Of a stretch of DNA of 64,000 nt, positions 401 through 57,255 are shown in pieces (within the stretch, counting starts at the first letter, position 1; each line of letters begins with the position of its first letter). A program made the translations under genes and the position numbers. The stretch is taken from positions 512,001 through 576,000 of the forward strand of contig JAJREF010000001.1 of NCBI GenBank assembly GCA_047459655.1, given 5' to 3'. The notes beneath the pieces were generated by a model, which did no database searches, had not been told where the DNA came from, and worked only from the letters and a program-made list of their open reading frames with translations. The DNA comes from Rhabdochlamydiaceae bacterium. Its GTDB lineage: Bacteria; Chlamydiota; Chlamydiia; Chlamydiales; Rhabdochlamydiaceae.

Positions 401-469
401 TTAGACCTCATGCATAACCATAAACTGTTGTTTTCAACAGGCGGTAGCAGGTTTATGCAGGAGATCTAA
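401..469. repeat. short palindromic element with TAGACCTC...GAGATCTA ends
   Basis: ttagacctcatgcataa pairs imperfectly with ttatgcaggagatctaa; internal hairpin ctgttg/caacag. Confidence 0.6.
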
Positions 470-473
470 CATA

Positions 474-637
474 ACTCACCTTAAGCAAAAAGGATGGCTC
501 ATGGACTGTTTGAAAGCTGTTGATAAATCGAATTGCAGAAAATGGGTAGTATTGAATGAAATACAACCCAATTTCTGCAATTCGATTTTCAACGCTTTGA
601 AACAGTCCATGAGCCATCCTTTTTGCTTAAGGTGAGT
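474..637. mobile_element. 164-bp foldback/MITE-like element with perfect 38-bp terminal inverted repeats and a 6-bp direct repeat (AACATA)
   Basis: 474-511 is the exact reverse complement of 600-637; the interior is also palindromic; aacata lies at 468-473 and 638-643. Confidence 0.8.
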
Positions 638-657
638 AACATAAACGGTGGCCCTTT

Positions 658-939
658 ATGAGCGAAGATAGACTCACAGGAATTTTAGTCATTCAAAATG
701 CGAAAGGTTTGCACACACGCCCCTGCGCAGAACTTGTAAAATGTGTCAGCTCATTTAGATCGGAAGTAACCCTCCATTATAAAGGCGTTCAGGCTAGTGG
801 TAAGTCACTCCTTGCCATCCTTACCTTAGGGGCCCCCCTAGGAGCTAATATTACCATCGAAGCTGTCGGCAAAGATGCCAAAGAAACTATCGAAGCCTTA
901 ATTGCGCTTGCAGAGAAGAAATTTTACATTACCTATTAA
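658..939 (+). CDS. ptsH: HPr phosphocarrier protein
   Basis: GLHTRP (His15 motif) and ASGKSLLAILTLGA (Ser46 motif); 93 aa. Confidence 0.92.
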   Translation: MSEDRLTGILVIQNAKGLHTRPCAELVKCVSSFRSEVTLHYKGVQASGKSLLAILTLGAPLGANITIEAVGKDAKETIEALIALAEKKFYITY

Positions 940-1086
940 GTGCTTTGTCGGAGATTGCTCATCAATTTTTTGAAGACGACGATTTTGGAAAATGCAGCTA
1001 ACATGCAGAATGTTAGCGAGTTTGAAAAATCTAGTATTTGCAAAAATTGGCAGCAAGATTCGGCAAATGAGTTGTCCAGAGGCTCC
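937..1086 (+). mobile_element. MITE family A, copy 1 (left inverted repeat missing)
   Basis: Near-identical to 17256-17417 from aagtgctttgtcgg onward; ends ttgtccagaggctcc. Confidence 0.85.
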
Positions 1087-1179
1087 TTAGGGATCTGTCG
1101 ATTTATGGTTCTTTTAAGCCGGCTTCCTATTAGAACGTGAAATCAGCCAAAATAATCCATAAAATCGACAAACACTTAA
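1087..1179. repeat. short palindromic element abutting family A copy 1
   Basis: ttagggatctgtcgatttatgg pairs imperfectly with ccataaaatcgacaaacacttaa. Confidence 0.6.
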
Positions 1180-1398
1180 CACGCAAGAATTCTAATACCA
1201 CAACTACTTTATATACAATAACTTACACAAAAAAAACAATACCCCTCACATACTGCCACCTTTCGCCATCTTATTCTTAATACATTCATAATTAGAGATT
1301 TACATAACATAAACAAATAATTAAAAAAACTTTACATTCAGGAGTGTGCCTGCTAAAATTAAATTAATAATTTAACAAAATAATACAATGAGGTTAAT

Positions 1399-2451
1399 AT
1401 GTCTCACAAAGTAACTCCCCAAGATGGTTCTACACAGCCAACGAACAGCTCAAGCAATTTCCCACCAAATACATCATCTAATCCCCGTGATTGCAGCGCT
1501 TATGCAATAAAGCGCCTAGCAAAAAGTTCGAAAGATGAAACTGTTGGGGATGATACTGACCCATGGGCTTCATTTTTATTGGAATGGGACGAGGAAAACG
1601 TTCCTCTTGATCAACCTGTTCCGCATAAAAAAGATGCGGACGCTTCAGCATCAGCGGCTACCGTTGATAGAAGTGAACAGACTTCAGTAGTTGAAAAAAC
1701 ACAGGGGTTATTTGGAAGATTCTTCGGATGGGTAACAGGCGCCTCTTCTACAAAAAAACCTGCACAACCCCCTCGTTTAGAAGCAGCTCCTCGTTTAGAA
1801 GCAGCTCATCTTTTAGAAGCAGCCACAAGCAGTACCACACAAAATTCTTTTTTTCAAAGAAATCCGGCTTTCCCAGCAAGAAGTGCCAACACAGGTATAG
1901 TCAAGAAAGACACTACAAGCCTTATTGAAAGATACATTGAAGGATCTTTTCCAATTTCACAGATTGATGATGATTTCCCAAAACATGTGCAACAAGCAGC
2001 ACAAAATACAAGATGTGAACCAGAGAAGCTCTTGAACACCCCCAACCGAGCAGGAAATCAATTATTCTGGAATTTTTTCTATTGTTTTATAGGCAAATAT
2101 AAATTCACTACTATGCAAGCGCTGTTAGATATGGGAGCTATTCCTGGCAACATAGCCCCAGAATCAAAAACTTTTCGAAATGCATTTAATTCATCACTTG
2201 ACTTTGTAGAAGCGTTATCTTTGATATTAAGACTTGTTAAGGATGGAAGGTTGTCTGAATCTGATGTGAACTCTTTCAAAATTGCTTGGAATGATTTGAT
2301 AAAAGAAATTCCACAAGATCACAGACTCGAGAATTTGAAAATTTATTTGTCAGATAAGACAGAATATCAAGGGGAAGACACTGGCTGGAAAAAAGAAGAT
2401 CTAAAAAATTATATTAAGAACAACTTTGATGAAAATTTGAATTGGAAATAA
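1399..2451 (+). CDS. hypothetical protein, putative secreted effector (N-terminus shared with the next gene)
   Basis: 350-aa ORF with gagg RBS; Ser/Thr/Pro-rich N-terminus; VVEKTQGLFGRFFGW block shared with 2477-3595. Confidence 0.7.
   Translation: MSHKVTPQDGSTQPTNSSSNFPPNTSSNPRDCSAYAIKRLAKSSKDETVGDDTDPWASFLLEWDEENVPLDQPVPHKKDADASASAATVDRSEQTSVVEKTQGLFGRFFGWVTGASSTKKPAQPPRLEAAPRLEAAHLLEAATSSTTQNSFFQRNPAFPARSANTGIVKKDTTSLIERYIEGSFPISQIDDDFPKHVQQAAQNTRCEPEKLLNTPNRAGNQLFWNFFYCFIGKYKFTTMQALLDMGAIPGNIAPESKTFRNAFNSSLDFVEALSLILRLVKDGRLSESDVNSFKIAWNDLIKEIPQDHRLENLKIYLSDKTEYQGEDTGWKKEDLKNYIKNNFDENLNWK
1771..1824 (+). repeat. three 18-bp tandem repeats encoding PRLEAA-PRLEAA-HLLEAA
   Basis: cctcgtttagaagcagct twice, then catcttttagaagcagcc. 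Confidence 0.9.
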
Positions 2452-2476
2452 TAAATAATAATACAATGAGGCTAAT

Positions 2477-3595
2477 ATGTCTGACAAAATAAATCCACAA
2501 GATAGCTCTAGACAACCAGTGAGCGACCCAAGAGGTTCTATAGAAGATACCTCAGGCGCTCTCCGTGATTACAGCGCTTATGCAACAGAACTCCTAAAGA
2601 CTTCTTGGAACGATGAAAAAGATAGAGATACTGATTATACTAATCTAGATGGCCTCATATGGGACGGGATGTGGGACGAGCAAAACGTTTCTTTTGGTGG
2701 ATCTGTTATACATAAAGATGAAGAAGAGCAAGCAAGATCACCATCACCATTAGAAAGCGATGGAGATAACGATATCGACGCTTCAGCATCAACGGTTACC
2801 GTTAACACACATGAAAAGCACCCAGTAGTTGAAAAAACACAGGGTTTATTTGGAAGATTCTTCGGATGGATAACAGGTGCCTCTTCTACAAAAAAACCTG
2901 AAGAAACTCCTCCTTTAGAAGAAGACTGGACAGATATGACTGGAGAACCGAACCGAGAGTCACATATCGATTGGTCTGGCCAAGGACTCTCATCTATTGG
3001 TCCAGAGCGATTCAGTGCACTTAGAGCTGCAGATCCAGAAACACTTGATCTTTCCGATAACAAAATCAGTAATCTAGACGAAGATTTCGCTGATTTAACA
3101 AAACTAAAGACTCTTGACCTATCTCGAAATCCTTTAATTTATGTAGATGGTCTTCAGAAAGGAACAAGCTTACAAACCCTTATCTTAAATAAGACGATAC
3201 TCCGTCAGTTCCCGTGGTTTTTGAAAAATTTAAAAGAGTTAAAACATCTTGAACTTGAACAGGTTGGGCAATTTCTAGGGTCTGGGAGTCGTTATCGTGA
3301 AATCAGTCGATACACTTTCCCGCAGGAATTATCCAATTTAGAAATCCTGAATATGTGTTTTCATATGAGATCTTGGGACCGCGCCTTGTTACCAAAATTG
3401 GATAATCTCATAAATCTAAAACATCTTAATATTGTTGGTAATGACACCCCACCCGTTTCTTGGGATAAATTAAAAAAATTAGAAACTGTTACACTAGATA
3501 GCGGTCAATATAAGATATACTCAAAACTGATACAAGAAGCAATCCCTAGTTGCAAAATTATTGTAAAGGACATAATGGCAACTCACAGAGTGTAG
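2477..3595 (+). CDS. leucine-rich repeat protein, putative secreted effector
   Basis: LRR units LDLSDNKISNL, LKTLDLSRNPL, LQTLILNKT and LKHLNIVGN; N-terminus paralogous to 1399-2451. Confidence 0.8.
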   Translation: MSDKINPQDSSRQPVSDPRGSIEDTSGALRDYSAYATELLKTSWNDEKDRDTDYTNLDGLIWDGMWDEQNVSFGGSVIHKDEEEQARSPSPLESDGDNDIDASASTVTVNTHEKHPVVEKTQGLFGRFFGWITGASSTKKPEETPPLEEDWTDMTGEPNRESHIDWSGQGLSSIGPERFSALRAADPETLDLSDNKISNLDEDFADLTKLKTLDLSRNPLIYVDGLQKGTSLQTLILNKTILRQFPWFLKNLKELKHLELEQVGQFLGSGSRYREISRYTFPQELSNLEILNMCFHMRSWDRALLPKLDNLINLKHLNIVGNDTPPVSWDKLKKLETVTLDSGQYKIYSKLIQEAIPSCKIIVKDIMATHRV

Positions 3596-3634
3596 TAGAT
3601 TTGACTGAACCTGAGCTTTGCAACTACCTCTCTA

Positions 3635-6379: not shown

Positions 6380-6508
6380 GTATTTTCAACTCAAAGTGTT
6401 AATCTTACAAATTAAACCATTTAGCAGGGATTTTAGTAAAGCTCTGCATTCAATCCCCACCTACCTGCGCAAAATCAAATATCTGAATCACATGGGGCCT
6501 AATTCAAG

Positions 6509-7467: not shown

Positions 7468-7525
7468 AGCTCTATTTAATTATCTTTGTATTATAATAAG
7501 CCCAACTAAAAAATAATACAGATTT

Positions 7526-8617: not shown

Positions 8618-8619
8618 CC

Positions 8620-15766: not shown

Positions 15767-15818
15767 AGATCTCCTGGCAAAAATTTCCACCAAGAGAAGA
15801 TAAGGACGTTCTTAACAG

Positions 15819-15915
15819 CTTCCACGCTCCCTCCGCCGGTATTACCCGGATCAGGTCTCTAAGAGTTAGGCATGCGCCCTTTCAGCCACAATTGCTTGCA
15901 GCACCTCTGGTGTTG
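15819..15915 (-). ncRNA. TPP (THI-box) riboswitch
   Basis: The minus strand reads GAGGTGC...GGCTGAAAG...ACCTGATCCGGGTAATACCGGCGGAGGGAG, matching the TPP aptamer core; about 50 nt upstream of the MFS gene. Confidence 0.88.
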
Positions 15916-15957
15916 GAAGGAATTTTAAATGGAAACCTCTTTTATGGGTAGGGATAA

Positions 15958-17255: not shown

Positions 17256-17417
17256 GGAACCTCTGGACAAGTGCTTTGTCGGAAATTGCTGATCAATTTT
17301 TCGAAGACGACGATTTTGGAAAGCGCAGCTAAAATACAGAGTGTTAGCGAGTTCGAAAAATCTAGTATTTGCAAAAACTGGTGGCAAGATTCGGCAAATG
17401 AATTGTCCAGAGGTTCC
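17256..17417 (+). mobile_element. MITE family A, copy 2 (full length, 162 bp)
   Basis: Perfect 15-bp TIRs GGAACCTCTGGACAA / TTGTCCAGAGGTTCC; flanks ttaa and tcaa. Confidence 0.92.
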
Positions 17418-17529: not shown

Positions 17530-17798
17530 TGAGACCGTTGCATAAGTCAGCGTATTTTGAAAAAGTAGCACATTTTGATGAGATTTTGAAATGTGCGTTT
17601 TTACAAACATGATCACTTATGGAACCTCTGGACAAGTGCTTTATCGAAGATTACTGATCAGTTTTTCGAAGACGATGATTTTGGAGAACTTAGCTAACAT
17701 GTAGAATGTTAGAGGATTAGAAAAATCTAGTATTCGCAAAAATTGGGAGCAAGATTCGGCAAATGATTTGTCCAGAAGTTCCTTTTCCAATGGTCTCA
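17530..17798. mobile_element. palindromic element (type D) interrupted by family A copy 3
   Basis: Left end tgagaccgttgcataagt; its complement is split into acttat (17615-17620) and ccaatggtctca (17787-17798); internal hairpin gcacattt/aaatgtgc. Confidence 0.7.
17621..17782 (+). mobile_element. MITE family A, copy 3 (full length, 162 bp)
   Basis: GGAACCTCTGGACAA...TTGTCCAGAAGTTCC; collinear with copy 2. Confidence 0.92.
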
Positions 17799-17818: not shown

Positions 17819-17964
17819 TAGACATCTTGCGTAATTAAGATTCTGTCGATTTTATTGATTATTTGGTCGATTTCCCATTCCAATAGTAAGGGCAATATAT
17901 ACTCTATATTGCCCTTACTATTGGAATGGGAAATCGACAGAATCTTAATTACGCAAGAGGTCTA
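17819..17964. repeat. palindromic element with TAGACATCTTGCG...CGCAAGAGGTCTA ends and a perfect 34-bp inner stem
   Basis: 17866-17899 is the exact reverse complement of 17905-17938; 17825-17852 pairs exactly with 17931-17958. Confidence 0.85.
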
Positions 17965-21692: not shown

Positions 21693-21736
21693 TAAGGGCT
21701 CGTAAAGAAATAACTAGGCATTTCCTTACGAGCCTA
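21693..21736. repeat. 44-bp hairpin between efp and accB
   Basis: ggctcgtaaagaaat pairs with atttccttacgagcc. Confidence 0.65.
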
Positions 21737-27341: not shown

Positions 27342-27488
27342 ACATTCTCAAAATCAAGAAACTATTTATTTCTGCCCTTTTTGACATTTCTAAGGCTCTT
27401 TTTTTGGCCATGCGTACTCACATTGTCCCCAAAAAAGGACTTTAGATCTGGACAAAAATCATTAAAAATAAATTTCTAGATAGACTCT
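27342..27488 (-). mobile_element. palindromic element family B, degenerate copy
   Basis: Aligns to the reverse complement of 45781-45921 (ttttttggccatg.gt.ctcaca.tgtcc.caaaaa...aaaatcat.aaaaataaatt...agatagactc). Confidence 0.75.
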
Positions 27489-27748: not shown

Positions 27749-29506
27749 ATGCCCAAAAATACAAATGACTGGAGTGAGTGCAACATTATTGATGATGTTG
27801 ACTTCAACGAAGAAGACGCGCAATTATTTAAAAAATTACTAAGCAAGAAAGAGACCGACGAAGGAAAAGGGTCCGTTGCTTCTATGAGCTCAGGGCAGGT
27901 GCTGAAAGGACGTATCGTTGAGATCACTAAAGACTTTATCGTTGTTGATGTAGGGTTAAAATCTGAAGGACTTGTTCCATTAAATGAATTTATTGAAACA
28001 GCAGACCTCTACCTTGGGAAATGAAGTGGAAGTCTTCTTAGACCAAACAGAAGGAGAAGATGGCCAAATCGTTCTCTCTCATGAAAAAGCAAGAAGATTA
28101 CGTCAATGGGAACACATCGTTCACAACTGTCAAGAAGGCTCTATTGTCACTGGAAAAGTGATCCGCAAGGTAAAAGGTGGCTTGATGGTAGATATCGGAA
28201 TGGAAGCTTTCCTCCCTGGCTCCCAAATCGACAACAAGCGCATCAAAAACCTCGATGAGTATCTAGATAAGACGTTTGAATTTAAAATCCTTAAAATCAA
28301 TAGTGACAGAAAAAATGTCGTTGTTTCCCGTAGAGAACTTCTAGAAGAAGAGCGTATCTCGAAGAAAGTTGAAATGTTAGAAAACATCATTGAAGGACAA
28401 GTTCGCACAGGTGTTGTCAAAAACATCACCGATTTTGGAGTTTTCTTGGATCTTGATGGCATCGATGGACTCCTCCACATCACCGATATGACATGGAAGC
28501 GTATCAAACATCCATCTGAAATGGTTAATTTAGGCGATGAAGTGGAAGTTATTGTTCTGAATGTCGACAAAGAAAAAGGTAGAGTTGCTCTAGGAATGAA
28601 ACAAAAAGAGACCAATCCTTGGGAAGAGATCGAGAAAAGATACCTACCTGGAACACATGTAAAAGGTAGAATCGTGAGCCTCGTCCCCTATGGTGCCTTC
28701 ATTGAAATCGAGCCTGGAATCGAAGGATTGATCCACGTTTCTGAGATGTCTTGGACCAAGAGTATTTCTGACCCGAGTGAAATGGTAAAAAAAGGTGATG
28801 AAGTAGAAGCTCTAGTGCTTGGCGTTCAGAAAGAAGAAGGTAAAATCTCGCTAGGAATGAAGCAACTAGGTAAAAATCCTTGGCAAATGAAGTTGAAAAA
28901 AAATATCCTATTGGCAGCAGTGTCGAAGCAGAAATTCGCAACCTCACTAACTACGGAGCTTTTGTCTGAGCTAGAGCCGGGAATCGATGGTCTTATCCAC
29001 ATTTCTGATCTCAGCTGGATTAAAAAAGTATCCCTATCCTTCTGAAGTTTTAAAGAAAGGGGATAAAGTAGAAGCGATTGTTCTATCTATTGACAAAGAT
29101 AGCAAAAAATCACGCTCGGAGTCAAACAACTCAGCCAAAATCCTTGGGAAAACATTGAAAAAGCAGTTCCCGTCGGAACTCTTGTGAAAGGCGTTGTAAC
29201 TAAGATCACTGCTTTTGGAGCTTTTGTTGAGCTTGACAATCGGAATTGAGGCTCTCATTCACGTTACCTAACTCTCCGACCAACCTTTTGGCAAAGTTGA
29301 GGGAAGTGATTTCTAAGGGCCAAGAGATCGTAGCCAAGGTGATTAAAGTCGATCAAGAATACAAAAAAATCTCCCTCTCTATCAAAGAGTATCTTGTTGA
29401 AAAAATAAAGAAAATCACGATGACATCGTAGTTGGCGAGAAGAAAAAACGTACAACCAAGAAGAAAACAAAAGATAAAGAGGAAGAAGGAACAGAGGGTG
29501 AAGTAG
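27749..29506 (+). CDS. rpsA: 30S ribosomal protein S1 (frameshifted; 3' end approximate)
   Basis: Repeated S1 domains ([31 protein letters not shown]). Confidence 0.95.
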
Positions 29507-30826: not shown

Positions 30827-33399
30827 AAACCTCAAGTTAACGATCAAAAATGCTCAGTTGGCAGAAGCCTTAAAAAAAATTTAAGAAGCCAGAAGAACCT
30901 GCTAAAAAAAAGGCTGAAAAAGTCAAAAAAGCAGTCAGAAGAAGCCCCTCTGCCCGAAGTGGTAGAGCCAGCACCTATTCTAGCTCCTATTGAACCACCA
31001 CCTGTCCAAAAGCCAGAAGTTGTACAAGCTCCGCCACCTCCAGAGCCTGAAGTGACTCCCGGCCCTCCTGTACAATCTAAGGTTGAGCCCAAGCCTAAGC
31101 CAGAACTGAAAATTGGAAGCACGCGCCCTGCACCCGAACGACGCATCTTCTCTTCCCCTAATTCTACTAAACCAGCTGGCCCTAAAGCGCCTCATGTGAA
31201 GCCACCTATGCCTGCTGGGTTTACCCCCCGATCAGAGGTCGTTGCTGGAGGAGGAAGGCAATATCCTTCTACTTACCGCCCCCCAGGACAACATCCCTAC
31301 AGACCTGGCGGCAGACCACCTTTTGATAATCGACCCTTTTCTGGATCGCCTTCATCACGCCCAGGTGGAAGACCCCTTTACGCTCGATTCCCCTTCCCCA
31401 AAAAGATGCTTCTAGATCAGAGGCTCCCAAAAAACATCCCTCTAAAGATGAAAAGGGTTCAAAGATTTTACCGAATATAAACCAGCCAAAAAGACAGCAG
31501 AAGGAGAGCGCTCCTTTGACTCTCGAGATAGACAAGGTCTTAGGGCTGATGAAGATCAGATTTGGAGAAAACGCAAAAGATCAGGGCCCAAGTTCCGCTC
31601 TCAGGAAGAAGAAGTTATTAGACCCAAGTCTTTACATATCCGTATTCCGATCACCATCAAAGATCTCGCAGCTGAAATGAAGTTAAAAGCCTCTCAACTC
31701 GTTGCTAACCTCTTTATGAAGGGACTCGTGCTCACTCTCAATGACCTCTTGGATGATGAAACAACGATCCAACTCCTAGGCCATGATTTTGACTGTGAAT
31801 TGACAATTGATACAAGCGAAGAAGAAAGACTACAAATCACCGATAAAACCATCAAGCAAGAAATCGCAGAAACATCAGCAGATGAGCTGCAGCTGACGTA
31901 GCCCTGTTGTGACATTCATGGGACACGTCGATCATGGTAAAACAAGCTTGATCGATGCAATCCGCAAATCAAACGTAGCCCAAGGGGAAGCAGGCGCAAT
32001 CACTCAGCACATTGGCGCTTTTAGATGCCACACAGCCGTCGGTGATATCACTATTCTTGATACACCGGGCCATGAAGCCTTTTCTGCAATGAGAACAAGA
32101 GGTGCTGACGTGACCGATCTCGTCGTCCTTGTTATTGCAGGAGATGAGGGAATTCGAGCGCAGACAATCGAAGCCCTTAAACAGGCGGAAGAAGCTAAAG
32201 TACAAGTGCTCGTCGCTATCAATAAAATGGATAAGCCTGGGTTCAACGCCGATAACATTTACCGCCAACTCTCAGAACATAATTTACTTCCAGAAGTTTG
32301 GGGTGGACAAACCATTACCGTTAATTGCTCAGCCATCACAGGCGCTGGCATTAAAGAACTACTTGAAACGCTTGCTCTCCAGGCTGAAGTTCTTGAACTC
32401 AAAGCCAATCCCCGCATGCGTGCAAGAGGCAGTGTAATCGAATCTCAAATGCATAAAGGTTTTGGCGCTGTGACAACCGTACTCGTCCAAAACGGAACTC
32501 TCAACCTTGGCGATGCGCTTGTCTTCGACCAAGAATGGGGACGCGTTAAAACAATGCATGACGAGTTTGGCAATAGCCTCGAACATGCCGCCCCTTCAAC
32601 CCCTGTAAAAATCACAGGCCTTTCAGGGCTTCCTGAAGCAGGTTCTGAATTCATTGTGGTTAAAAATGAGAAAGAAGCGAGACTTCTTTCTGAAGGAAGA
32701 CTCCATATTCGCAAACACGTTGCTCTCCAAGTGAAAAAAGCAGGTGTCGAAGGCCTACTCCAAGATCAAGCGCAAAAACAAGAGAAAAAAGTTCTTCACT
32801 TGATATTGCGCGCTGACGTTCAAGGATCTTTGGAAGCGCTCAAACAATCGATTGAAAAAATACAGTCGGAAAAAATCAATGTCCTGATTATCTCTGCAGA
32901 AGTGGGTGCTATCTCTGAATCTGATATTCAACTAGCTGGAGCCTCTAAAGCAACTATCATTGGATTCCATACGCAAGTTGAAACAAGAGCGGAAAGTTTA
33001 ATTAAATCTCTCAAGGTTAAAGTTCGTCTCCACGATATTATCTACCATGCTATCGATGACATCAAAGAAATCATGGTTTCTCTCTTGGATAAAATCGCGC
33101 AAGAAAATGACACAGGTGAAGCTCTTGTAAAAGCCATCTTTAAATCATCTCAACTTGGCAGTATTGCCGGTTGCCAAGTGACTGAAGGAACGATCCGTCG
33201 CAATAACCATATCCGCCTTGTGCGCGACAAAGAAGTCCTCTGGAAAGGCCCCCTTGCTTCTCTCAAACGTCTCAAAGACGATGCCAAAGAAGTGTCAAAA
33301 GGCATGGAATGCGGAATCCTCTTGCAAGGATTTACGGCTCTGAAAGAGGGAGACCTGATTCAAGCCTATGATCTTTTCTATCTCACCCAGGAATTATAA
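30819..33399 (+). CDS. infB: translation initiation factor IF-2 (frameshifted)
   Basis: TTG-AKNLKL start, Pro-rich linker, [17 protein letters not shown] and NKMD. Confidence 0.96.
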
Positions 33400-34419: not shown

Positions 34420-34962
34420 ATCACTCGAAGATATCCCTTCCCTCACAGGCCCCATTTCTTTAGCTATTGGCAACTTCGATGGTGTTCACCCAGGCCATCT
34501 ATACTTGATCAGCGAACTCAAGAAAAGAGGGGTACCTGTCATCATCACCTTTCGCAATCACCCAGCGGAGATCCTCTATCGAGACAAAACCCCTACACCT
34601 CTCTGCTCTCTAGAAAAAAAACTCCATTTTTTAGAATCAGCAGGTGTTGAACTTATTATTCTTCTCTCTTTTACCCCTGAGATCGCTTCAACAACGTATG
34701 ATGTCTTCTTAAAAAGATAAAAAAACACCTCCCCTTTCAAACATTTATCGCAGGGAAAGGTGACACCTTCGGCTTTCAAAGACAAGGCACTGAAGAGCGC
34801 ATCAAATCTCTTCAATCTGAGCTTGACTTCGAAGCCATCTATCTAGAAAAATTTATATTTCAAGGAAAGCCCATTTCCTCAACCCGGATCAGAGAACTCC
34901 TTGCCAAAGGAGAAATAACCGAGGCACAAATGCTTTTACACTTAGAGGTTATAAAACAATAA
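34406..34962 (+). CDS. ribF: RibF FAD synthetase (FMN adenylyltransferase) domain; riboflavin kinase domain absent
   Basis: [11 protein letters not shown] and [10 protein letters not shown], then a stop at 34960-34962. Confidence 0.85.
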
Positions 34963-35017
34963 AATGAACGATTTTGCGCTGGTCAAATCGTTCATTTTAT
35001 TGTTTTACAACCCCTTA
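34943..35017. repeat. 75-bp palindrome overlapping the ribF 3' end
   Basis: ggttataaaacaataaaatgaacgattt pairs with aaatcgttcattttattgttttacaacc (one mismatch). Confidence 0.85.
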
Positions 35018-35034: not shown

Positions 35035-36131
35035 ATGCCAGATCTTGCTTGCGGTATTGTAGGCCTGCCGAATGTTGGAAAATCGACCCTCTTCAATGCC
35101 CTTACTCGTAAAATGGCAGCAGCTGCTGCTAATTATCCTTTTTGCACCATTGATCCTAACGTCGGGATTGTCGATGTCGAAGACTCTAGACTCTCCATCC
35201 TCTCCAAAATCTCAGGAAGCAAGAAACTCATCCCTGCCACCGTTACATTTGTTGACATTGCAGGTCTTGTAAAAGGCGCTTCCCAAGGAGAAGGCCTCGG
35301 CAATCAATTTCTGACCAACATCCGAGAGACCGATGCGATCATCCATGTTGTCCGCTGTTTTGCAGAAGGAGATGTCATCCACGTTGCAGGAAAAGTCGAT
35401 CCGATTGCTGATATTGAAGTCATTAACCTAGAACTTATCCTCTCTGATCTCCAAATGATCGATAACATCATTAAAAAACTAGAGAAACAAATCAAAACAA
35501 AAAAAGAATTTGAAGGGATACTCCAAACACTCCAAAAAGCCAACATCCACCTCAATCAAAATAAACCCCTCCGCTCTTTCTCTTGCACTCCAGAAGAAAA
35601 AGCCCACCTTGCTCTCTACCCCTTCCTAACAAATAAAAAAGTCCTGTATGCTGCAAATGTCGATGAGGCTTCCCTTCCTTCCATGGAAAATCCCTTTGTT
35701 CAGCAAGTGAGGGAGCACGCTGAAAAAGAAGGCAACTCCGTAATCCCTATCTGCGCGAAATTGGAAGAAGAGCTAGGACAACTCACTGTAGAAGAGGCAG
35801 CCGAATTTCTCCAAACCCTCGGCCTCCAAGAAACAGGACTCAACCGCCTCATTAGATCGGCCTTTACAACCCTTGACATGATCACCTACATCACAACCGG
35901 TGAAATTGAGACAAGAGCCTGGCCGATCAAAAAGGAACTCCCGCGCAGGAAGCTGCCGGCAAAATCCATACCGATATCCAAAAAGGATTCATCAGAGCTG
36001 AAGTCGTCTCCTTCAATGATATGGTAAAATATAAAGGTAGAGTCGGCGCAAGAGACGCTGGCAAAGCAAAATCAGAAGGAAAAGAGTACATCGTCCAAGA
36101 TGGCGATGTCGTTCTTTTCTTTCACAATTAG
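35035..36131 (+). CDS. ychF: redox-regulated ATPase YchF (frameshift near 35930)
   Basis: [22 protein letters not shown] and [17 protein letters not shown]. Confidence 0.96.
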
Positions 36132-45775: not shown

Positions 45776-45780
45776 TGTCA

Positions 45781-45921
45781 TGAGTCTATCTCGAAATTAA
45801 AAAACAATTTATTTTTGATGATTTTCGTTCATGTCTAAAGCTCGTTTTTGTGGACAGTGTGAGCACACATGGCCAAAAAAAGGGCAAAAACAAATATTTT
45901 CTTAATTTCGAGATAGTCTCA
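45781..45921 (+). mobile_element. palindromic element family B
   Basis: 20-bp TIRs tgagtctatctcgaaattaa / ttaatttcgagatagtctca (one mismatch). Confidence 0.82.
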
Positions 45922-45955: not shown

Positions 45956-46286
45956 ATAACCTCTGGATAAGTGCTTTGTCGGAGATTTCTGATCAGTTTT
46001 TCGAAGACGACAATTTTGAAGAACGCAGCTAACATGGAGAATGTTAGCAAGTTCGAAAAATCTAGTATTCGCAAAAATTGGCGGCAAAATTCGGCAAATG
46101 AATTGTTTGAGACCTTTCTACAACTCTGGCAAATCGAAAAAATCGAAGATTTTTTTGCAAATTTTTGATTTTATATCGAAGACATACTCAATAGAGTAGG
46201 CAAGATATGAAAAATAAAATCTGCGGAAAAAGCGCGATTTTAGCGGTTTACCAGAGTTGTGCAGAGGTCTCTTGCCCAGAGGCTAC
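45956..46286 (+). mobile_element. MITE family A, copy 4, TTAA-flanked and interrupted in its right TIR
   Basis: ttaa|ataacctctggataagtgctttgtcgg...gaattg, resuming at 46272 as ttgcccagaggctac|ttaa. Confidence 0.85.
46109..46271. mobile_element. palindromic element (type C) nested inside family A copy 4
   Basis: gagacctttctacaactctggcaaa pairs with tttaccagagttgtgcagaggtctc; central tactc/gagta hairpin. Confidence 0.8.
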
Positions 46287-48219: not shown

Positions 48220-48232
48220 ATAAACTAAGATA

Positions 48233-48748: not shown

Positions 48749-50213
48749 TGTTAGCCCAAAATGATAATGTCCTCTTTCTGCTAAATAGAAATGTCCTCTT
48801 TTGAAGATACTGACCTCATTCAAATTTGTTTTTGAAAGGAGGTGAGAGTGAAGGAGTTGATAACTATGAGCAGAAGAGAATTAGAAAGAGTTGAAATGAT
48901 GCGCAATTTAAAAAGAAAAAGCTTTTCCCAGATAGAAGTGGGACAACGTCTGGGGATAACAGCCAGACAAGTTAGACGTTTAAAACAAGCTTACGAACTG
49001 CATGGAGAAGCTGGCTTAGTTTCCAAAAGAGAGGGCAGCCTAGTAATCGCAGGTTAACAGAAGCTTTTAGATCACAAGTCCTAAAGCTGATTTCCGCTCA
49101 TTATGCAGATTATGGCCCTACGTTAGCTCAAGAAAAGTTAGAGGAAAAACATAAGCTTACATTGTCTATAGAGACGCTTAGGAAATGGATGATAGAAGAA
49201 AATATTTGGTCTCCTAAAAAAGCTAAAAAGGCAGTTATCCACCCGATGAGACCAAGAAGGAGTCAGTATGGAGATCTTGTACAAATAGACGGATCTCCCC
49301 ATGACTGGTTTGAAAATAGAGGACCCAGGTGTACCCTTTTAGTATACATTGATGATGCAACTAGTAGACTTGTCGAGCTGTTTTTTTCTCTTGGTGAAAC
49401 AACAGAATCTTATTTTAAAGCGACAAAAAGGTATCTAAAGAGATGTGGAAAACCACTTGCTTTCTACAGCGATAAATATGGAGTTTTTAGAGTCAACCAC
49501 AAAGAAGCTGTATCTGGTAATGGAGTGACAGAGTTTGGAAGAGTCCTAAAAAAACTCGATATCAAGCTCATTTGTGCCAATACACCCCAGGCAAAAGGAA
49601 GAGTTGAAAAAGCCAATCAAACATTGCAAGATCGTTTAGTCAAGGAGATGAGAGAAAAAAATATTTCAACTATTGAAAAGGCAAATGAATGGATTCCCGA
49701 GTTCATAGAGAAGTATAACAAAAAATTTGCCGTAGCTCCTAGAAACGCAGAAGATGCTCATCGAGCTTTAAAACCAGAAGAGAACTTAGAAGAGATTTTC
49801 AGTTACCAGGAAATCCGATGTCTCTCTAAAAACTTAAGCTTCCAATACAAAAACAGTCTTTATCAGATCGATAGTGAAAGATCATCATACACTCTAAGGA
49901 AAGCAAAAGTCATGCTTCTAGAAGATCTCAATGGACGGGTAAGAGTGCTGTATAAGGGCAAGGAGTTAAAATACAAGATATATGGGGAAGAACCGCAAGG
50001 GAAAATTGTGATGTCCAAAGAAATAGATTTAGCACTTAATTGGATAAACAAAAAACCTCAAAAACCTTCAAGGAGTCACCCGTGGAGATAAGAGAAGAGC
50101 TTTTGAAAATGGGTATTTTAGATAAAAAACGGACAAGTCCAATGAAGATCAGAACATCCAAAGAGGACATTTCTAAATTGGAGAAAAGCGGACATTTCTA
50201 TTTTGCGTTGACA
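48749..50213 (+). mobile_element. insertion sequence of the IS1202 family (formerly in ISNCY), 1465 bp, 15-bp target duplication
   Basis: Ends TGT...ACA; repeated aatgtcc/ggacatt boxes in both ends; caaaaaaacagactc at 48734-48748 and 50214-50228. Confidence 0.92.
48842..50091 (+). CDS. DDE transposase with N-terminal HTH (frameshift near 49030)
   Basis: GDLVQIDGSPHDW, YIDDATS, YSDK, PQAKGRVE.ANQTLQDR and C-terminal HPWR. Confidence 0.92.
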
Positions 50214-50291
50214 CAAAAAAACAGACTCTTCTCTTTGCAAATTTACAACTCCTACTTGTATTAAATTATTTTCCGCGCCATTCTTTTTTGT

Positions 50292-51290: not shown

Positions 51291-51353
51291 CTTTTCTTCC
51301 ATTTTTTTAATTGCACCTCTGTCACTCCAAGACCTACAATGCGACTAAGGAAC

Positions 51354-51487
51354 TGGGCAAGAATAATTGCTGCATTTGGACTGCGCCAAAGCCCCGTGGT
51401 TGAGCGATCGTAAGCCACCTAGTATCAGACCGATCGCTCAACCACGGGGCTTTGGCGCAGTCCAAATGCAGCAATTATTCTTGCCCA
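51354..51487. repeat. perfect 57-bp inverted repeat with a 20-nt loop
   Basis: 51354-51410 is the exact reverse complement of 51431-51487. Confidence 0.95.
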
Positions 51488-51732
51488 CTACTATCTATTT
51501 CTCTAAGGTCTTCTTCTGTGTCGATAATAAAGGAGGTACGGTCCTCTTTTTTTACTAATTTTTTAGCTTGAGAAAGAATATATTTATCTAGCAATTTCCC
51601 CACCTTACCCTTAACGAGGATTTCACGAATAAGGGCTCTACGCTTTTTGGCCGACAAAAGGGGGAATAGGAGGTTTTCAGCATTTTATCGGCCATTTAAT
51701 ACCTCTTTTATAAAAGTCAATTTCTTAATATA

Positions 51733-52964
51733 ATGTTTCCCTCTACCACCAACGGACAAATTTTTATGGGCAAACAAACAGAACTCAAAGCTTTATTTTT
51801 GATTGTCACTATTTTCATTGCAGCTTGCATTGAAACAGATATCTACTTGCCCGCTTTTCCAGATATGATGACCTGGTTTGCTGTTTCTGAAAGCGCTATC
51901 CAAGGTCTCCTCACTTGGAACTTTGTAGGAATCTGCATTGCAAGCCCTCTCTATGGGCCTCTTGCCGATGCCTTTGGTCGTAAAAAACCCTTGCTCATCG
52001 CTCTAGGGATGTTTCTAATTGGAAGTCTCATTACAATTTTTGCCACTAACCTCGATCAGATGCTAGCGGGTAGAGTCCTTCAAGGAGTAGGTAGCGGTGG
52101 ATGTTTTACGTTGGGAACAGCGATCATATTTGATGTCTTTCAAAAAGAAAAAGCAGTCCGAGCGCTTAACTCACTTAATATGATCATCCCCCTAATCATG
52201 GCAGGAGCTCCTATATTAGGGGGCTATCTCAACCATGCATTTGGGTTCCGTTCAAATTTTCTTGCCATTGCCATTTTTGTAACAATTGGCCTGATCATAA
52301 CTCTGATCTCCTTTGAAGAGACATTACCTAAAGAGAAACGGATGCCTCTTCAGTTTAAGTCTGTTGTAAGAGATTTTAAGGAAGCTTTCTTGTGCGCCCC
52401 CTTCTGGCAACTTACTTTTATGATCTGCTTAATTTTTGGATCCTATATTGCCTTCCTATCAGGGACCTCTGTTCTCTTTGTGGTGGAGTTTGGGATGAGT
52501 AAATCTATCTTCCCTTTTGTTCAAGCAGCTATCTTGGGTGGCTGGGTAGCAGGAAGTCTTATCTTAAATTCCTCTATTGCTAAATGGGGCATTAAAAAAG
52601 TCAAAAAAATGGGTCTGATGGCATGTGTAGCTGGAGGATTAGAATTAGCGATTGTAACCCTCCTTGCTCCCACAGACGGTTATCTTCTTACGATTGGCAT
52701 GACGGTCTACGCTTTTGGAGCTAATTGGCTCTTTGGGCTGTATTTCCCCGAAAGCATGGCAATCCTCCCCACATCAAAGGTACTGCGGCAAGCCTAATTA
52801 CAAGTGCTCGCTTGCTGTCTGCCGCGCTTATTGTTGGATTAGCAAGTAGCCTTTACAACGGAACCATCTATCCTCTAACAGGGATTGTTGTGGGATCCAT
52901 TTTGATTATGCTTCCCCTACTTCGGATGTATGAAAGCAAAAAAGCTACCGCTCTCTCTCCATAA
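51733..52964 (+). CDS. MFS multidrug efflux transporter, Bcr/CflA family (late frameshift)
   Basis: TDIYLPAFP, YGPLADAFGRK, GRVLQG and EETLP. Confidence 0.88.
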
Positions 52965-53571
52965 ATAGATTTAGTAATTGCTTTTCATACTCTTCTATCG
53001 GGATTAGACCAGCTTCCACGCGCCTTTGAGCCAGGAGTTCTGGATCGCACACAGGATACATCACGAGCTCACCTGCCGCCTCTACCCATTGCGTGCCATA
53101 GACCTGCGGCTCATTTCCGTACATACACACTCTATCCAGTAAATAAGCATAATTGCGAAAGGGGGCCTCTTGTTTATCAACTGCATCTTTCAAAAGAGGT
53201 AAGCACTGTTTTTGAAAATCCAGATCTTGGTGTTGAACTAAAAGCCACATTGCTTCAGCTCCTTCGAGCCCGACAAGTATTATTCCTGGCCAACCAAATT
53301 CTGCAATGATTTCTTTTAGTCTAGGAGCATGTTTTTGATCTATTTCTTGCAGCATGTTCCAATTTCGTTCAGATATAGCAATCTGTCTTACCCTCTGATC
53401 TTCAGCTTGCATCTCCAAAAGCTCTCCTTGTAGAGAAGAATGCTTTGGTTGTGTAAGGGCGCAACAAAGACCAGGAAGCGCCCTATCAAGAATGCCCTTT
53501 GAGCTTTCTGCCTCAGCAGCATACCCCATAAGACATAGACTCATACAAATAACACATAATCTACCCACCAT
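52945..53571 (-). CDS. exported DUF6624-like protein
   Basis: Signal-like N-terminus; EDQRVR, GWPG, AMWLLVQH, AYLLDR and QVYGTQ. Confidence 0.75.
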   Translation of the reverse strand: MVGRLCVICMSLCLMGYAAEAESSKGILDRALPGLCCALTQPKHSSLQGELLEMQAEDQRVRQIAISERNWNMLQEIDQKHAPRLKEIIAEFGWPGIILVGLEGAEAMWLLVQHQDLDFQKQCLPLLKDAVDKQEAPFRNYAYLLDRVCMYGNEPQVYGTQWVEAAGELVMYPVCDPELLAQRRVEAGLIPIEEYEKQLLNLFMERER

Positions 53572-54463
53572 TGGGCCAACACTCCTCATAGGAAAAATCA
53601 AACTCATCGGTAAACCCCGCTTTTTCTTTCATTATTCGCTTGCGCTCGCCCATTTTAGCTCTTTGGTCGATTTCCTGCATCTCTTCTATGGCAAGAAAAA
53701 AATCAGCGATTTCCTTGTTTTCGTGTATGTGTTTCGCTTTTGTACTGCTCGGTAGAGGCATACATAGATGTTGAATAATCCATCTTAGAGCTAATTGTGC
53801 AGGCGTCTTACCATATTTTTTGGCTATTTTCGCAATGAGCGCATCATCACAAATACGTCCTCTGCCGAGTGGGGACCAGGCTTGCACAGCAATACACTTC
53901 TCTTTACAGAGCTTTAGTAGTTCAAAATCACAAAAGTAAGGGTGCATCTCCACTTGAACCCAAGAAATCGGAACTCCTACAGCTAAAGCTTTTTTCAAAT
54001 GGTTAAAAGAGACGTTGCTAAGCCCAATATGGCGGATTTTTTTGTCTTGTCTTAACTCCTCCATAGCACGTAATGTCTTATCAATGGGGACTTGACTATT
54101 GGGCCAATGTATTAAATACGTATCTAAATACTCTATCTGGAGCTGTTCCAACGTCTTTTCTAGATCAAGGCGTACATTTTCTGGCTGCAACATATCATGC
54201 CACACTTTTGAAATGATGTAGACATCACCACGATCTACATCCTTTAATGCTTGTGCAATCGCTTCAAAGTTGGAGTAGCGCGTTGCCGTATCGATGACAC
54301 GATAACCCGCTTCGAGCGCCTCTTTTACAGCTTGTGTGCAGATGTGACCTGTCAATGGATAAGTCCCGAATCCTATCATAGGATAACTCACCCCATCGAT
54401 CTGGCACATCCCACTTTTAGAATCTAATTCAATAGAAGCAGATAAATGCATGCTAGCTATCAT
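53561..54463 (-). CDS. aldo/keto reductase
   Basis: IGFGT, GYRVIDTA.Y, YLIHWP, IGLSN and AWSPLG. Confidence 0.93.
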   Translation of the reverse strand: MIASMHLSASIELDSKSGMCQIDGVSYPMIGFGTYPLTGHICTQAVKEALEAGYRVIDTATRYSNFEAIAQALKDVDRGDVYIISKVWHDMLQPENVRLDLEKTLEQLQIEYLDTYLIHWPNSQVPIDKTLRAMEELRQDKKIRHIGLSNVSFNHLKKALAVGVPISWVQVEMHPYFCDFELLKLCKEKCIAVQAWSPLGRGRICDDALIAKIAKKYGKTPAQLALRWIIQHLCMPLPSSTKAKHIHENKEIADFFLAIEEMQEIDQRAKMGERKRIMKEKAGFTDEFDFSYEECWPNGG

Positions 54464-56075
54464 ACCTCATGAAAAAAATATGAATCTAGATTTAATTCAT
54501 CAAGATTGTCTGTTTGATAACCGATATAGAGATCGGGGCGAATGAGAACAGCCCTGCAGCCTTTAGCTCCATATAGACGGTGGGCTGACCCAGAAGAATC
54601 TTTAAAGCTCTGCACAGTGTGTGACACAAGAGGAAGTCTTCCCTCTTGAAAAATGACGATCGGAATGATGGGGTGAGCTGCAACCTTTTGAAGGATAGCC
54701 GTAAAATTGGGTGCTTCATTCCCTGCAAAAAGGAGTAGATAAAAAGAGGTAGATTTGCGCCAAAGAGCGTACAGGCTAGTAGGCTCATCTTGATGAAGAA
54801 GATAAGCATCTGGCGCTCTAAAACCGCTTTGTGGCCCTACAATAGAGCTTCTAGGATAACAAATACCTATTTGAGAAATTATTTTTACCAGATATCTCTG
54901 CAAAAAGAAATGCGTGTTAAGCAAAATATCGCTGCATTACGAAGAGCGATAGCTACACGGTTTTGCAAGGTGGCAATTTGTGAGGCGATCTCTGTTGCTT
55001 GTAAAAGCTTTTTAGCAACAGAGCGCCTCTCTAAATCATACGTATCCAATAGCTTTTTACCCGCTTGCTTGTTATGCACCAGTGCTAATTTCCAGGCTAG
55101 ATTGAACGCATCTTGCAATCCTGTATTCATCCCCTGCCCTCCAACGGGACTATGGATATGTGCGGCATCACCCGCTAGAAAAACAGATCCTTTCTGATAG
55201 GTCTCTACCATTCGGCTATTGATACAAAAATTTGCACACCAGAGAGGATCTGAAACAAGAACGTAGGAGCCTGTATGCTTGCAAAGAAGCTCTTGGACCT
55301 CTTTAAGTTGAGGCTTTGCTACAATCTGCTCTTTCAATTGGCCGTTAGGAAGAGAGTGACGTTCTTTGAGCAGATTACGACAACGCTCTAGTTGAAAAAT
55401 CAATCGGTAACGCTTTGGCTCAGGAAGAGGGATGGCTGCAAGAGCGCCTATTGCATCTAAAAAAACGAAAAGCTCATCAATAGGATAATCCCAGTGGATA
55501 CGCACGTCAGCGAGTGAAAAAATACCTAAAAGAGGTTTCCCTTCGAACGCAAGGTTGAGCTGCTTGCGAACCTGGCTATGCGCCCCATCACAACCTACAA
55601 CCCACGTTGCTTGAATTGTTTCTTCTTGCCCAGAGGTAGTATGAGCAACAACGACCTCAACATCTTCCTCACGTTGTTTCATCCTCAGAAACTCTACTCC
55701 CCTCTCAATCTTTACTCCAAATGAAATAAGGTACTGCTCGAGGATCTCTTCTGTTTTTACTTGTTCAAGACTTAAGATAAAAGGGTAGGACGAATCAAGG
55801 GTGTCAAAAGAAATTCTACCTAATTTATGAAACGAACAGATCGGGTTGCCCACTTTTAAACGCAGACCTTCTGCTAAAAAAGCCTCTGCAAAACCCAAGT
55901 GTTCAAAGATCTCCATCGTCCGGGCTTGTATGGCCACCGCCCGTGACTGGTCTTGACAAGCAACACCTTTATCGATAATTCTACAGCTAAGACCATAGCG
56001 CGCAACTTCTGCTGCCATCAGCATGCCTGTTGGACCTGCTCCAACAATCAGCACATCAACGCGATTATCCTTCAT
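54460..56075 (-). CDS. FAD-dependent monooxygenase, aromatic hydroxylase family (frameshifted)
   Basis: VGAGPTG, VGCDGAHSQVR, GDAAHIHSPVGGQGMNTGLQDA and C-terminal LIRPD. Confidence 0.92.
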
Positions 56076-56281
56076 AAGAATACACCCTACGCCATTCAAA
56101 AAAACGTATTAACGCATAGCGTATAGATAAACTTTTTAGCTTATTTTCTCAAGAAAAGTAGAATCCTAACCACCAAAGAAAGCTAAAGGTGGGTTGTTTT
56201 ATGTACGAGAATTGGGAGCAATCGACTCGCCTCTTCGGTTATGCTATTCTCAAAATTTTATCAGGATACGGACACTAGAAC

Positions 56282-57255
56282 ATGGCAAATGGAGAAATCA
56301 TCCTATACACCACAGAGGATGGGACAGCTTCCGTTCAGCCCAGAACCCAAGACGGCACTGTTTGGCTAACCCAGGCCGAAATCGCTGAGCTCTTCCAAAC
56401 AACTCCTCAAAATACAACTTCAAATCTAAGAGCTATTTACACTGATAACGAGCTGGTTGAAGCCGCAACTTGTAAGGAACGCTTACAAGTTCAATCTGAA
56501 TGGAAAAGAACGATTCAACGAAATCTCAAATTTTACAATCTTAGTGCAATACTTGCGATAGGCTACCGCATTCGCTCTCCTCAGCAACCAGGCTCAACTA
56601 TTTTTTAAAAAAGTTCAAAACAAAATGCTCTGGGCTACAACCCATAAGACGGCGGCCGAATTGATTTTAGAGCGATCAGATTTTAAACTGCCCAATATGG
56701 GGCTGACAAGTTGTGAGGGACACCGCGTCCGTCAGCAAGACGTAACCATCACCAAAAATTATCTCACTCAAGTGGAACTGGAAGAACTTAACCTAATTGT
56801 TGTCATGTATTTGGATTACGCGGAGCTACAAGCAAAACAGCGAAAGACGATCACGATGAGAGAATGGGAGGAAAAGTTGGATACCTTCCTTAGCTTTAAC
56901 GAAAAAGATCTCTTAAGGAGTCTCTGGATAAGTGCTTTGTCGGAGATTGCTGATCAGTTTTTCGAAGACGACGATTTTGGAAAGCGCAGCTAACATGTAG
57001 AATGTTAGAGAGTTCGAAAAATCTAGTATTCGCAAAAATTGGCGGCAAGATTTGGCAAATGACTTGTCCAGAGGTTCCTTAAGCCACGCAGGTAAAATAT
57101 CTGCCCAGGTAGCAGAAAAGCTCTCCCTTGAGCGCTATTCAGAATTTAATCAAAAGCGCCTTAAGGAAGAGAGACTGCGAGCTGATGAAGAAGATGTTGC
57201 TCTTCTTGAAGCAATCCGAGAAAAAGCTAACCCAAGCGAAGCTCCTGCGGATTAA
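56282..57255 (+). pseudogene. RhuM-family (virulence protein) pseudogene
   Basis: VWLTQAEIAELF, YNL.AI.AIGYR, VQNKM, NMGLTS and KNYL; apparent internal deletion near 56580 and a MITE insertion at 56917. Confidence 0.82.
56917..57078 (+). mobile_element. MITE family A, copy 5 (162 bp) with TTAA target duplication
   Basis: ttaa at 56913-56916 and 57079-57082; removing the element restores the host reading frame. Confidence 0.93.

What the first reader, a model, noticed from the sequence alone, without database searches (positions are those of the whole stretch)
401..57082. Many distinct short palindromic elements, clustered in intergenic nests, resembling Rickettsia palindromic elements
Seen: besides family A there are family B (45781-45921, 27342-27488), type C (46109), type D (17530), and elements at 401-469, 474-637, 1087-1179, 17819-17964, 21693-21736, 34943-35017 and 51354-51487. 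Many begin with [T/G]AGAC or TAG[A/G]G. They cluster at 0.4-1.2 kb, 17.2-18.0 kb and 45.8-46.3 kb and often abut one another. From memory, not from a search: TAGAC.TCTTGC...GCAAGAGGTCTA ends, a size near 150 bp and a central hairpin are the layout of Rickettsia palindromic elements (RPEs). Inference: an RPE-like repeat system in a chlamydial endosymbiont, and the best candidate here for an undescribed system.
Basis: partly seen in the sequence, partly recalled or inferred. Interest (0 to 1): 0.75.

Follow-up and report, generated by a model that had tools for sequence, protein, structure and literature searches.

The report
Chlamydial mini-transposons with swappable ends
This environmental chlamydia carries about twenty kinds of ~160-base hairpin repeats with the marks of miniature transposons, and many share one middle piece under different ends, which likely lets them be moved by different transposases.

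Summary
The genome holds 264 pieces (147 near full length, 1.9% of its DNA) of about 20 palindromic types, mostly 161-166 bp, intergenic and nested. They are MITEs. They have type-specific target duplications (TA, 3, 4 or 5 bp), and a relative lacks them at several sites. The commonest type (A) ends exactly like the right end of an IS5-family element in the same genome. Six other types match IS5-family ends found elsewhere.

They are not Rickettsia RPEs: no RPE model hits, and the cores are unrelated. But types G, K and R share the RPE-1 terminus, which also bounds two-ORF IS5-family (likely ISL2-group) elements. That gives RPE-1 a candidate helper transposase. One copy is a 56-codon in-frame insert in mfd, as with RPEs.

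The unusual part: a ~100-bp core is kept (81-85% identical between genomes) while the outer ~30 bp of both arms are replaced (about 50%). This core's motif occurs in 26 of 401 Chlamydiota genomes, sometimes with IS630 ends. Helpers for ten core-I end types were not found, and no RNA data exist. New variant of a known kind.

The parts
403..467 (.). Type R, 65-bp short element with the RPE-1/ISL2-type end; its middle resembles a remnant of the E core (by eye)
   Evidence: end 17/18 identical to an IS5-family end (L138), 0/300 shuffles; single copy
474..637 (.). Type E, 164 bp, core I, ACTCACC ends, 5-bp duplication class (imperfect at this copy)
   Evidence: 28 pieces, 12 near full; DNA fold -80.5 kcal/mol, z -22; 5-bp duplication in 6 of 9 copies but 3 of 12
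937..1086 (+). Type A lacking its first bases, starting at the stop codon of the HPr gene (658-939)
1087..1190 (.). Truncated K-type (core II) remnant abutting A
3600..3630 (-).
   Evidence: (I9)
17256..17417 (+). Type A, 162 bp, GGAACC ends, 4-bp duplication (TTAA/TCAA)
   Evidence: RNA fold z -7.2; nest skipped by the relative in run X6
17531..17797 (+). Type D (GAGACC ends, 5-bp duplication class, internally deleted) carrying a nested A in its right end
   Evidence: six A copies sit at this same spot of D
17621..17782 (+). Type A nested in D
17820..17963 (.). Type K, 144 bp, core II, RPE-1/ISL2-type ends, AAT duplication
   Evidence: K end 15/18 to IS5-family L651
21696..21734 (.). Short J-type element (39 bp, TAA duplication) between accB and efp
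   Evidence: spacer 52-54 bp shorter in G001 and G002, genes abut in G006
27345..27487 (-). Type B, decayed second copy
   Evidence: (I1)
34945..35014 (.). Short L-type element (70 bp, TTA duplication); five such copies in the genome
45782..45920 (+). Type B, 139 bp
   Evidence: nest replaced by 50 letters in runs X6/X7
45956..46286 (+). Type A (TTAA duplication) interrupted near its right end by C
46109..46271 (-). Type C, 163 bp, GAGACC ends, 5-bp duplication class, nested in A
51355..51486 (.). Type Q, 132 bp, core I with fully symmetric 57-bp arms, ACT duplication
   Evidence: (I2); clean empty site in runs X6/X7; single copy
56917..57078 (+). Type A, TTAA duplication, overlapping the 3' end of ORF 56625-56993
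57453..57479 (+). N-type end remnant
   Evidence: (I9)

Best explanation
These are about twenty types of non-coding palindromic elements with terminal repeats and target-site duplications, likely moved in trans by DDE transposases that read only their outer ends. Shown: type A ends like the right end of an IS5-family element in the same genome. D, C, G, K, R and N have ends like IS5-family elements found elsewhere. Several types share one ~100-bp core under different outer ~30-bp arms and different duplication lengths. Inferred: a core changes its helper transposase when one arm is altered (point changes, or recombination with a neighbour in a nest) and the change is copied to the other arm through the hairpin, so both ends switch together and the length stays near 160-166 bp. 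Nests form because the AT-rich arms contain the targets (TTAA, TWA, AWT) of other types. The elements are probably selfish; any effect on neighbouring genes would be secondary.
For: Duplications: A 35/59 perfect 4 bp (cross-pair rate 0.29, because TTAA is preferred); D 7/9 and C 5/11 perfect 5 bp (overlapping sets, cross-pair <=0.01); N 8/16 4 bp (0.02); G 3/4, I 3/4, J 3/4, O 3/3, K 2/3 3 bp; L 6/7 3 bp. Empty sites in one relative (X6/X7, one sample) and in G001, G002, G006. IS5-family element at G000:C3:6644-7825 (NF033581 E 5.5e-88, over cut-off) plus a deleted copy with a TTAA duplication. Both A ends match its right end (18 and 17 bp), its left end only 11 bp, and the A core has no match inside it. 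End matches of 18 bases: A 18, D 16, C 15, G 17, K 15, R 17 (0/300 shuffles each), N 14 (1/300). Shared cores after stripping 24 nt per end: core I (E, F, I, J, J2, L, M, P, Q) and core II (K, K2, N, H), with best-partner z 14-26 and 15-29 against pair-preserving shuffles. Core 81-85% against ends 48-52% for P versus L467, L422, L468. The D core (86%) occurs with AGACC ends and a 3-bp duplication in L008/L011. Core-I elements L467, L422, L450 match an IS630 end (L662) at 15-16/18, 0/300. Double Watson-Crick arm changes: 74 against 35 expected overall, E 29 against 8.6.
Against: No significant helper end was found for 12 of 19 G000 types (E, F, I, J, L, M, O, P, Q, S, H, B). A search for core I behind a GGAACC/GAGACC/AGACC-type end matched 1 of 401 genomes, and that match was a CTAG/TA-type end, so a switch of one full core between IS630 and IS5 helpers is not shown. 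The only cognate transposase gene in G000 is frameshifted in both copies. No IS630 and no further DDE_Tnp_4 match were found; the assembly is 81.6% complete. The L318, L138 and L148 partners were fetched with patterns taken from the MITE ends, so their end identity is partly circular (L639, L651, L662 were fetched by transposase family). Arm-covariation cells are not independent and D, C, A show little excess. The core tree's end labels were too crude to count switches.
Confidence: 0.75

Rival explanations
1. The conserved core is itself functional (a protein-binding or single-strand hairpin signal, or a structured RNA). It is kept by selection, and the arms are interchangeable handles.
For: 48 of 53 scorable core-I sequences keep a C/G asymmetry at a site that was not part of the search pattern (57 rows, 4 not scorable). 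Cores are 81-85% identical across chlamydial families while the ends are unrelated. 54 of 62 predicted pairs show double changes. In family A, G-T mismatches outnumber A-C 184 to 86. Two identical ORF-less group II introns sit just behind hairpins in these elements.
Against: Short forms lacking the core exist in several copies (L 70 bp x5, E 51 bp x4, O 94 bp x3). Outside A there is no G-T bias (76 to 88). IHF sites are not enriched (2 against 5.3 expected). The central motif of the outside set was imposed by the search pattern. Mismatches may merely keep a long palindrome stable (general knowledge).
Confidence: 0.3
2. Each type is an ordinary internal-deletion derivative of its own insertion sequence; shared cores are by-products of nested insertion followed by deletion, with no special switching mechanism.
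For: Nests are frequent (39) and partial copies are common (117 of 264 pieces). One MITE group has been proposed to form by deletion within an IS (PMC3184786, passage).
Against: A has two right-end-like termini and no internal match to its IS. Chimeras keep a centred core and about the same length (155-166 bp in 39 of 53 rows), which random deletion would not give without selection on length.
Confidence: 0.2
3. They are REP/REPIN-like elements spread by a HUH (Y1/RAYT) transposase acting on the hairpin core.
For: Hairpin cores carry conserved mismatches. Some outside elements with the same AGACC ends seem by eye to carry REP-like doublets (resemblance recalled, not tested).
Against: No Y1 transposase was found in G000. 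Target duplications whose length follows the end type point to DDE enzymes.
Confidence: 0.05
4. They are RPE family members acquired from Rickettsiales.
For: Same terminus and duplication as RPE-1 in G, K and R; in-frame insertion in mfd.
Against: No RPE model hit in 27 window frames. Core scores are at background. The core-I motif is in 0 of 81 genomes of the Tisiphia order and 0 of 81 of the Legionella order. The terminus is found in many phyla.
Confidence: 0.05

Closest known systems
Prokaryotic MITEs (RUP, ERIC, Correia/NEMIS, Nezha, YPAL, QMITE1/2; PMC2229807, PMC3184786, PMC10969869, PMC5896051, passages)
   Same: 100-200 bp, terminal inverted repeats like those of an IS, target duplications, long stem-loop, mostly intergenic, empty sites in relatives.
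   Different: About 20 types of nearly one length in one small genome, and the same core under different ends and duplication lengths. The reviews describe MITE cores of different taxa as unrelated and no passage read mentions end exchange.
Rickettsia palindromic element RPE-1 (TIGR01045)
   Same: Types G, K, R have the same terminus and AWT duplication. Long hairpin. In-frame insertion in a housekeeping gene (type P in mfd).
   Different: Unrelated core, no RPE peptide match, usual length 161-166 bp rather than 144 bp, and most types have other ends. The in-frame type (P) does not have the RPE-1 end.
IS5 family, ISL2 group (ISCaa2/ISCaa3 of Amoebophilus; PMC3196728, passages)
   Same: The 860-914-bp two-ORF elements bounded by the G/K/R/RPE-1 terminus have HTH_Tnp_4 and DDE_Tnp_4 domains and fit the size and layout reported. 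The paper finds relatives in Orientia, Legionella, Parachlamydia and cyanobacteria, much as the MITE ends are spread.
   Different: The group assignment is inferred from architecture, not from an ISfinder comparison. No such element was found in G000.
IS630 family and its MITEs (RUP)
   Same: TA-type ends; core-I elements in other chlamydiae match an IS630 end at 15-16 of 18 bases.
   Different: The same core also occurs with 3-bp TWA and 5-bp duplications that IS630 does not normally make (general knowledge).

Membership tests
MITE | Short (50-500 bp), no transposase gene | tested here: met
   39-169 bp; no family hit of note in 27 frames
MITE | Terminal inverted repeats | tested here: met
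MITE | Target-site duplication | tested here: met
   weak for E, not resolved for B, H, M
MITE | Multiple dispersed copies | tested here: met
   16 of 20 seed types have 2 or more pieces; R, Q, S, P are single
MITE | Ends shared with an autonomous IS | tested here: inconclusive
   met for A, C, D, G, K, N, R; not found for the other 12 of 19
MITE | Empty orthologous sites | tested here: met
MITE | Mobilisation in trans shown | not testable with these tools
   needs a transposition assay
RPE-1 | Peptide matches TIGR01045 | tested here: not met
   0 of 27 window frames; 3 of 14 outside frames over the cut-off as positive controls
RPE-1 | Core DNA homologous to RPE-1 | tested here: not met
   best score 25, at background
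RPE-1 | Same terminus and 3-bp AWT duplication | tested here: met
   G, K, K2, R only
RPE-1 | In-frame insertion in protein genes | tested here: met
   type P, 56 aa in Mfd, gap in the G001 orthologue; rare: at most 5 of 264 pieces lie inside ORFs, one confirmed
RPE-2 to RPE-8, WPE | Sequence homology | tested here: inconclusive
   no NCBIfam palindromic-element model hit; no DNA models available; no Rfam match at the gathering score in the window except tRNAs and a TPP riboswitch
REP/REPIN (RAYT) | Associated Y1 transposase | tested here: not met
   (assembly 81.6% complete)
Stable small RNA | Discrete transcript | not testable with these tools
   no RNA holder listed

The most novel reading that the evidence does not exclude
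A chlamydia-specific ~100-bp hairpin core is a functional passenger that survives the loss of any one helper by exchanging both of its outer arms, and so rides unrelated transposase families (IS630 and IS5 groups) at a fixed length of about 160-166 bp. RPE-1 of Rickettsia is one member of a cross-phylum class of such elements built on ISL2-group IS5 ends, which would name the long-missing enzyme that spreads it.
Probability: 0.3. Interest if true: 0.8.

Novelty: new variant of a known kind. Interest (0 to 1): 0.6.

Why it matters
MITEs are usually thought to be tied to one parent IS and to die with it. A core that keeps its length and structure while changing both ends would explain how such elements persist in small intracellular genomes whose IS content turns over, and it can be tested in E. 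coli. The link between the RPE-1 terminus, a 3-bp AWT duplication and two-ORF IS5-family elements makes an old question directly testable: what moves RPE-1. One review lists its duplication as unknown and names no helper (PMC2229807, passages). The in-frame inserts show that RPE-style protein remodelling also happens in Chlamydiota.

Tried and rejected
Rfam: no family at the gathering score over any element; sub-threshold matches are mostly microRNA hairpin models, taken as shape only.

Autonomous partners inside G000 by end pairs 400-2600 bp apart with a duplication: only A composites, the deleted IS5 copy, and a G element split by an intron (the full IS5 was missed there because its flanks differ by one base). 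IS630 and Y1 were not found in G000.

Viral-contig scans: E end 6 loci with no pair; N end 120 loci with no pair; TA|GGGAG end 0 loci; core-I motif 0 loci. The J end was not scanned in any collection. End pairs in five genomes carrying the AGACC terminus showed no IS-sized pair among the listed rows, but 146 matches were not listed.

IHF consensus and sigma-70 promoter scans gave nothing beyond chance. No RNA holder listed.

The duplication tally and the L row were off by one base and were replaced. The tree merged TA- and TWA-type ends and is not used to count switches. H scored only 12/18 (101/300 shuffles), although its first 9 bases equal the ends of IS5-family elements L613, L614, L655, so it is left unassigned. 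Earlier scan findings: three look-ups, nothing.

Literature: ten searches showed no description of such elements in Chlamydiota, and no passage linking RPE-1 to an IS family. Ogata 2002 is not held. Ogata 2000, Zhou 2008 (Nezha ends) and ISfinder were not seen. The supplementary MITE catalogue of PMC11602168 was not opened and may contain some of these elements.
Full report
HOST. The window lies in a 1.61-Mb, five-contig assembly (G000, 81.6% complete). Its SctU, SctV and efp proteins pass NCBIfam cut-offs, two of them with models I recall as chlamydial, and named Chlamydiae records share its element cores. I treat it as an environmental member of Chlamydiota. Several core genes are frameshifted, probably by assembly indels, since contigs of run X1 differ by single-base indels. 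ORF-based counts are therefore rough.

THE OBSERVATION. All listed elements exist. Local inverted repeats number 201 in the genome against 2 in a Markov copy of the largest contig. Twenty seed types annotate 264 pieces, 147 near full length, 30,067 bp or 1.87% of the genome: A 93, E 28, D 21, C 20, H/L/N 14 each, F 13, G 12 and fewer of the rest. Complete copies are mostly 161-166 bp. 220 of 264 pieces overlap no ORF of 100 codons, 39 overlap an ORF end and 5 lie inside one. 94 of 255 merged pieces are within 30 bp of another (random mean 12.1, maximum 31), in 39 nests. In the window, A sits in the right end of D (17531-17797) and C sits in the right end of A (45956-46286).

THEY ARE TRANSPOSON-LIKE. 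Duplication length follows the end type: A 4 bp (35 of 59 perfect, 23 of them TTAA), N 4 bp (8 of 16), D and C 5 bp (7 of 9 and 5 of 11, overlapping sets), G, K, I, J, O, L 3 bp (AWT or TWA), P TA. E is 5 bp in 6 of 9 copies but only 3 of 12. A relative about 91-94% identical (runs X6 and X7, one sample) joins across Q with one letter between, across the 45.8-46.3-kb nest with 50 letters between, and across the 17.2-18.0-kb nest with unknown letters between. The accB-efp spacer lacks the short J in G001, G002 and G006. Family A was found in 1 of 40 relatives, and 62 full copies are mostly 90-100% identical to one seed, which suggests a past burst.

HELPERS. G000 holds an 1182-bp IS5-family element (C3:6644-7825; NF033581 E 5.5e-88) and a deleted copy. 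Both ends of A match its right end (18 and 17 bp) and its left end only for 11 bp, and the A core does not occur inside it. So A is not a simple deletion product. The gene is frameshifted in both copies. The D-type end bounds 1.1-1.4-kb IS5-family elements and 142-181-bp MITEs with 5-bp duplications in viral contigs (the name IS1106 for this type is recalled, not from a call). In the host's own family, IS5-family elements fetched by protein family have ends matching G, K and R. Against a panel of 32 IS elements, A, D, C, G, K, R and N match at 14-18 of 18 bases (0-1 of 300 shuffles). The other 12 of 19 types do not match significantly.

THE RPE QUESTION. 102 of 123 have a perfect 3-bp duplication (two of the six flank bases were fixed by the pattern), with length modes at 144 (26), 162 (15) and 167 (8). 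Three of the 144-bp loci pass the RPE1 model, so this is the RPE-1 terminus; 0 of 27 window frames hit any RPE model, and the RPE-1 core is unrelated to the 18 cores tested. In 16 of 122 metagenome loci the same terminus bounds 681-1218-bp stretches. All six ORFs scanned from them carry HTH_Tnp_4 or DDE_Tnp_4, and three of three match the IS5 model below its cut-off, being half genes. Size and two-ORF layout fit the ISL2 group as described for ISCaa2/3 (PMC3196728, passages); the assignment is inferred. A review lists the RPE duplication as unknown and names no helper (PMC2229807, passages). The primary RPE papers were not seen. RPE-like behaviour does occur: type P is a 56-residue in-frame insert in Mfd that the G001 orthologue lacks, and 8 of 53 core-I rows, nearly all from other genomes, lie in stop-free frames of 251-934 codons.

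SHARED CORES, EXCHANGED ENDS. With 24 bases stripped from each end, nine representatives form core I (E, F, I, J, J2, L, M, P, Q) and four form core II (K, K2, N, H); A, B, C, D and G stand apart. Core I thus occurs with 5-bp, 3-bp and TA duplications inside one genome. Its central motif occurs in 26 of 401 Chlamydiota genomes (control 0; mainly families f1, 11 of 90, and f5, 12 of 69). It occurs in 0 of 81 genomes each of the Tisiphia and Legionella orders. Those elements measure 155-166 bp in 39 of 53 rows (8 without a called duplication, 6 cut by contig ends). P is 81-85% identical in the core but 48-52% in the ends to elements of three other genomes, whereas E and its same-end relative L430 are 85% and 76%. 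The D core reappears at 86% with AGACC ends and a 3-bp duplication (L008, L011), and the C and K2 cores likewise. Three outside core-I elements match an IS630 end. Against the boldest reading, no full core I behind a GGAACC/GAGACC/AGACC-type end was found in 401 genomes. Its 3-bp and 5-bp ends remain unassigned, and the core tree could not count switches.

MECHANISM. Shown: repeats, duplications, empty sites, end identity with IS elements, and core sharing. Inferred: movement in trans by the matching DDE transposase (likely, about 0.85). Inferred: replacement of both outer arms while the core stays (about 0.7). Inferred more weakly: arm-to-arm copying as the way both ends change together (about 0.45). 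The last rests on the excess of double Watson-Crick changes (74 against 35, mainly in E; cells not independent), on fully symmetrised copies such as Q, and on A having two right ends. Whether the core does anything is open. 48 of 53 scorable cores keep one arm asymmetry, yet coreless short forms recur.

VERDICT. A real and dense MITE system, not RPE family members, not found described in ten literature searches. Of the ten papers opened I saw passages only, plus the figure legends of PMC10969869: PMC1458961, PMC10969869, PMC3767692, PMC11602168, PMC3184786, PMC3733652, PMC3196728, PMC2267715, PMC5896051, PMC2229807. No supplements were read. New variant of a known kind; interest 0.6.

Noticed in passing
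G000:C3:40903-41593 (L251) and G000:C5:319182-319872: Two identical 691-nt ORF-less group II introns (Rfam RF02001, RF01998), each inserted directly behind a hairpin inside one of these elements (a G and a C type). A longer copy, 81% identical in its 5' part, lies at C1:699634-701565 with an A element at its 3' flank. This fits hairpin-targeting class IIC introns (recalled).
   Followed up: partly
window 48749-50219: 1470-bp insertion sequence (ISNCY/IS481-like transposase), about ten copies in the genome; the relative in X6/X7 has almost no cover here.
   Followed up: partly
window 15810-15918 (-): TPP riboswitch above the Rfam gathering score.
   Followed up: no
window 27984-29045, 31909-33399, 35035-36027 and others: rpsA, infB and ychF appear truncated or frameshifted, probably long-read indel errors; X1 contigs show single-base indels elsewhere in the window.
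   Followed up: partly
window 51642-51686: The relative in X6/X7 has 1232 other letters at this spot, perhaps an IS.
   Followed up: no
L005-L127: Elements with the RPE-1 terminus cluster in length near 144, 154, 162 and 167 bp, perhaps helical phasing; the sample is not independent and the pattern limited the range. Several seem by eye to carry REP-like doublets as cores.
   Followed up: no
L374:301-442: A 142-bp MITE with D-type ends and a 5-bp duplication whose core scores best against RPE-1-like cores (scores 34-42): possibly end exchange outside Chlamydiota.
   Followed up: partly
L450 (G001:C5): A P-like element lies in frame within a long open frame of G001 (1414 codons).
   Followed up: partly
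G000:C1:101500-103347 and C5:90648-92460: Two copies of a 1.8-kb element with a 537-codon IS1380-like frame below cut-off, whose left end resembles the L/N ends by eye; not tested.
   Followed up: no
window 1399-2451 and 2477-3595: Tandem paralogous ORFs without an NCBIfam match.
   Followed up: no
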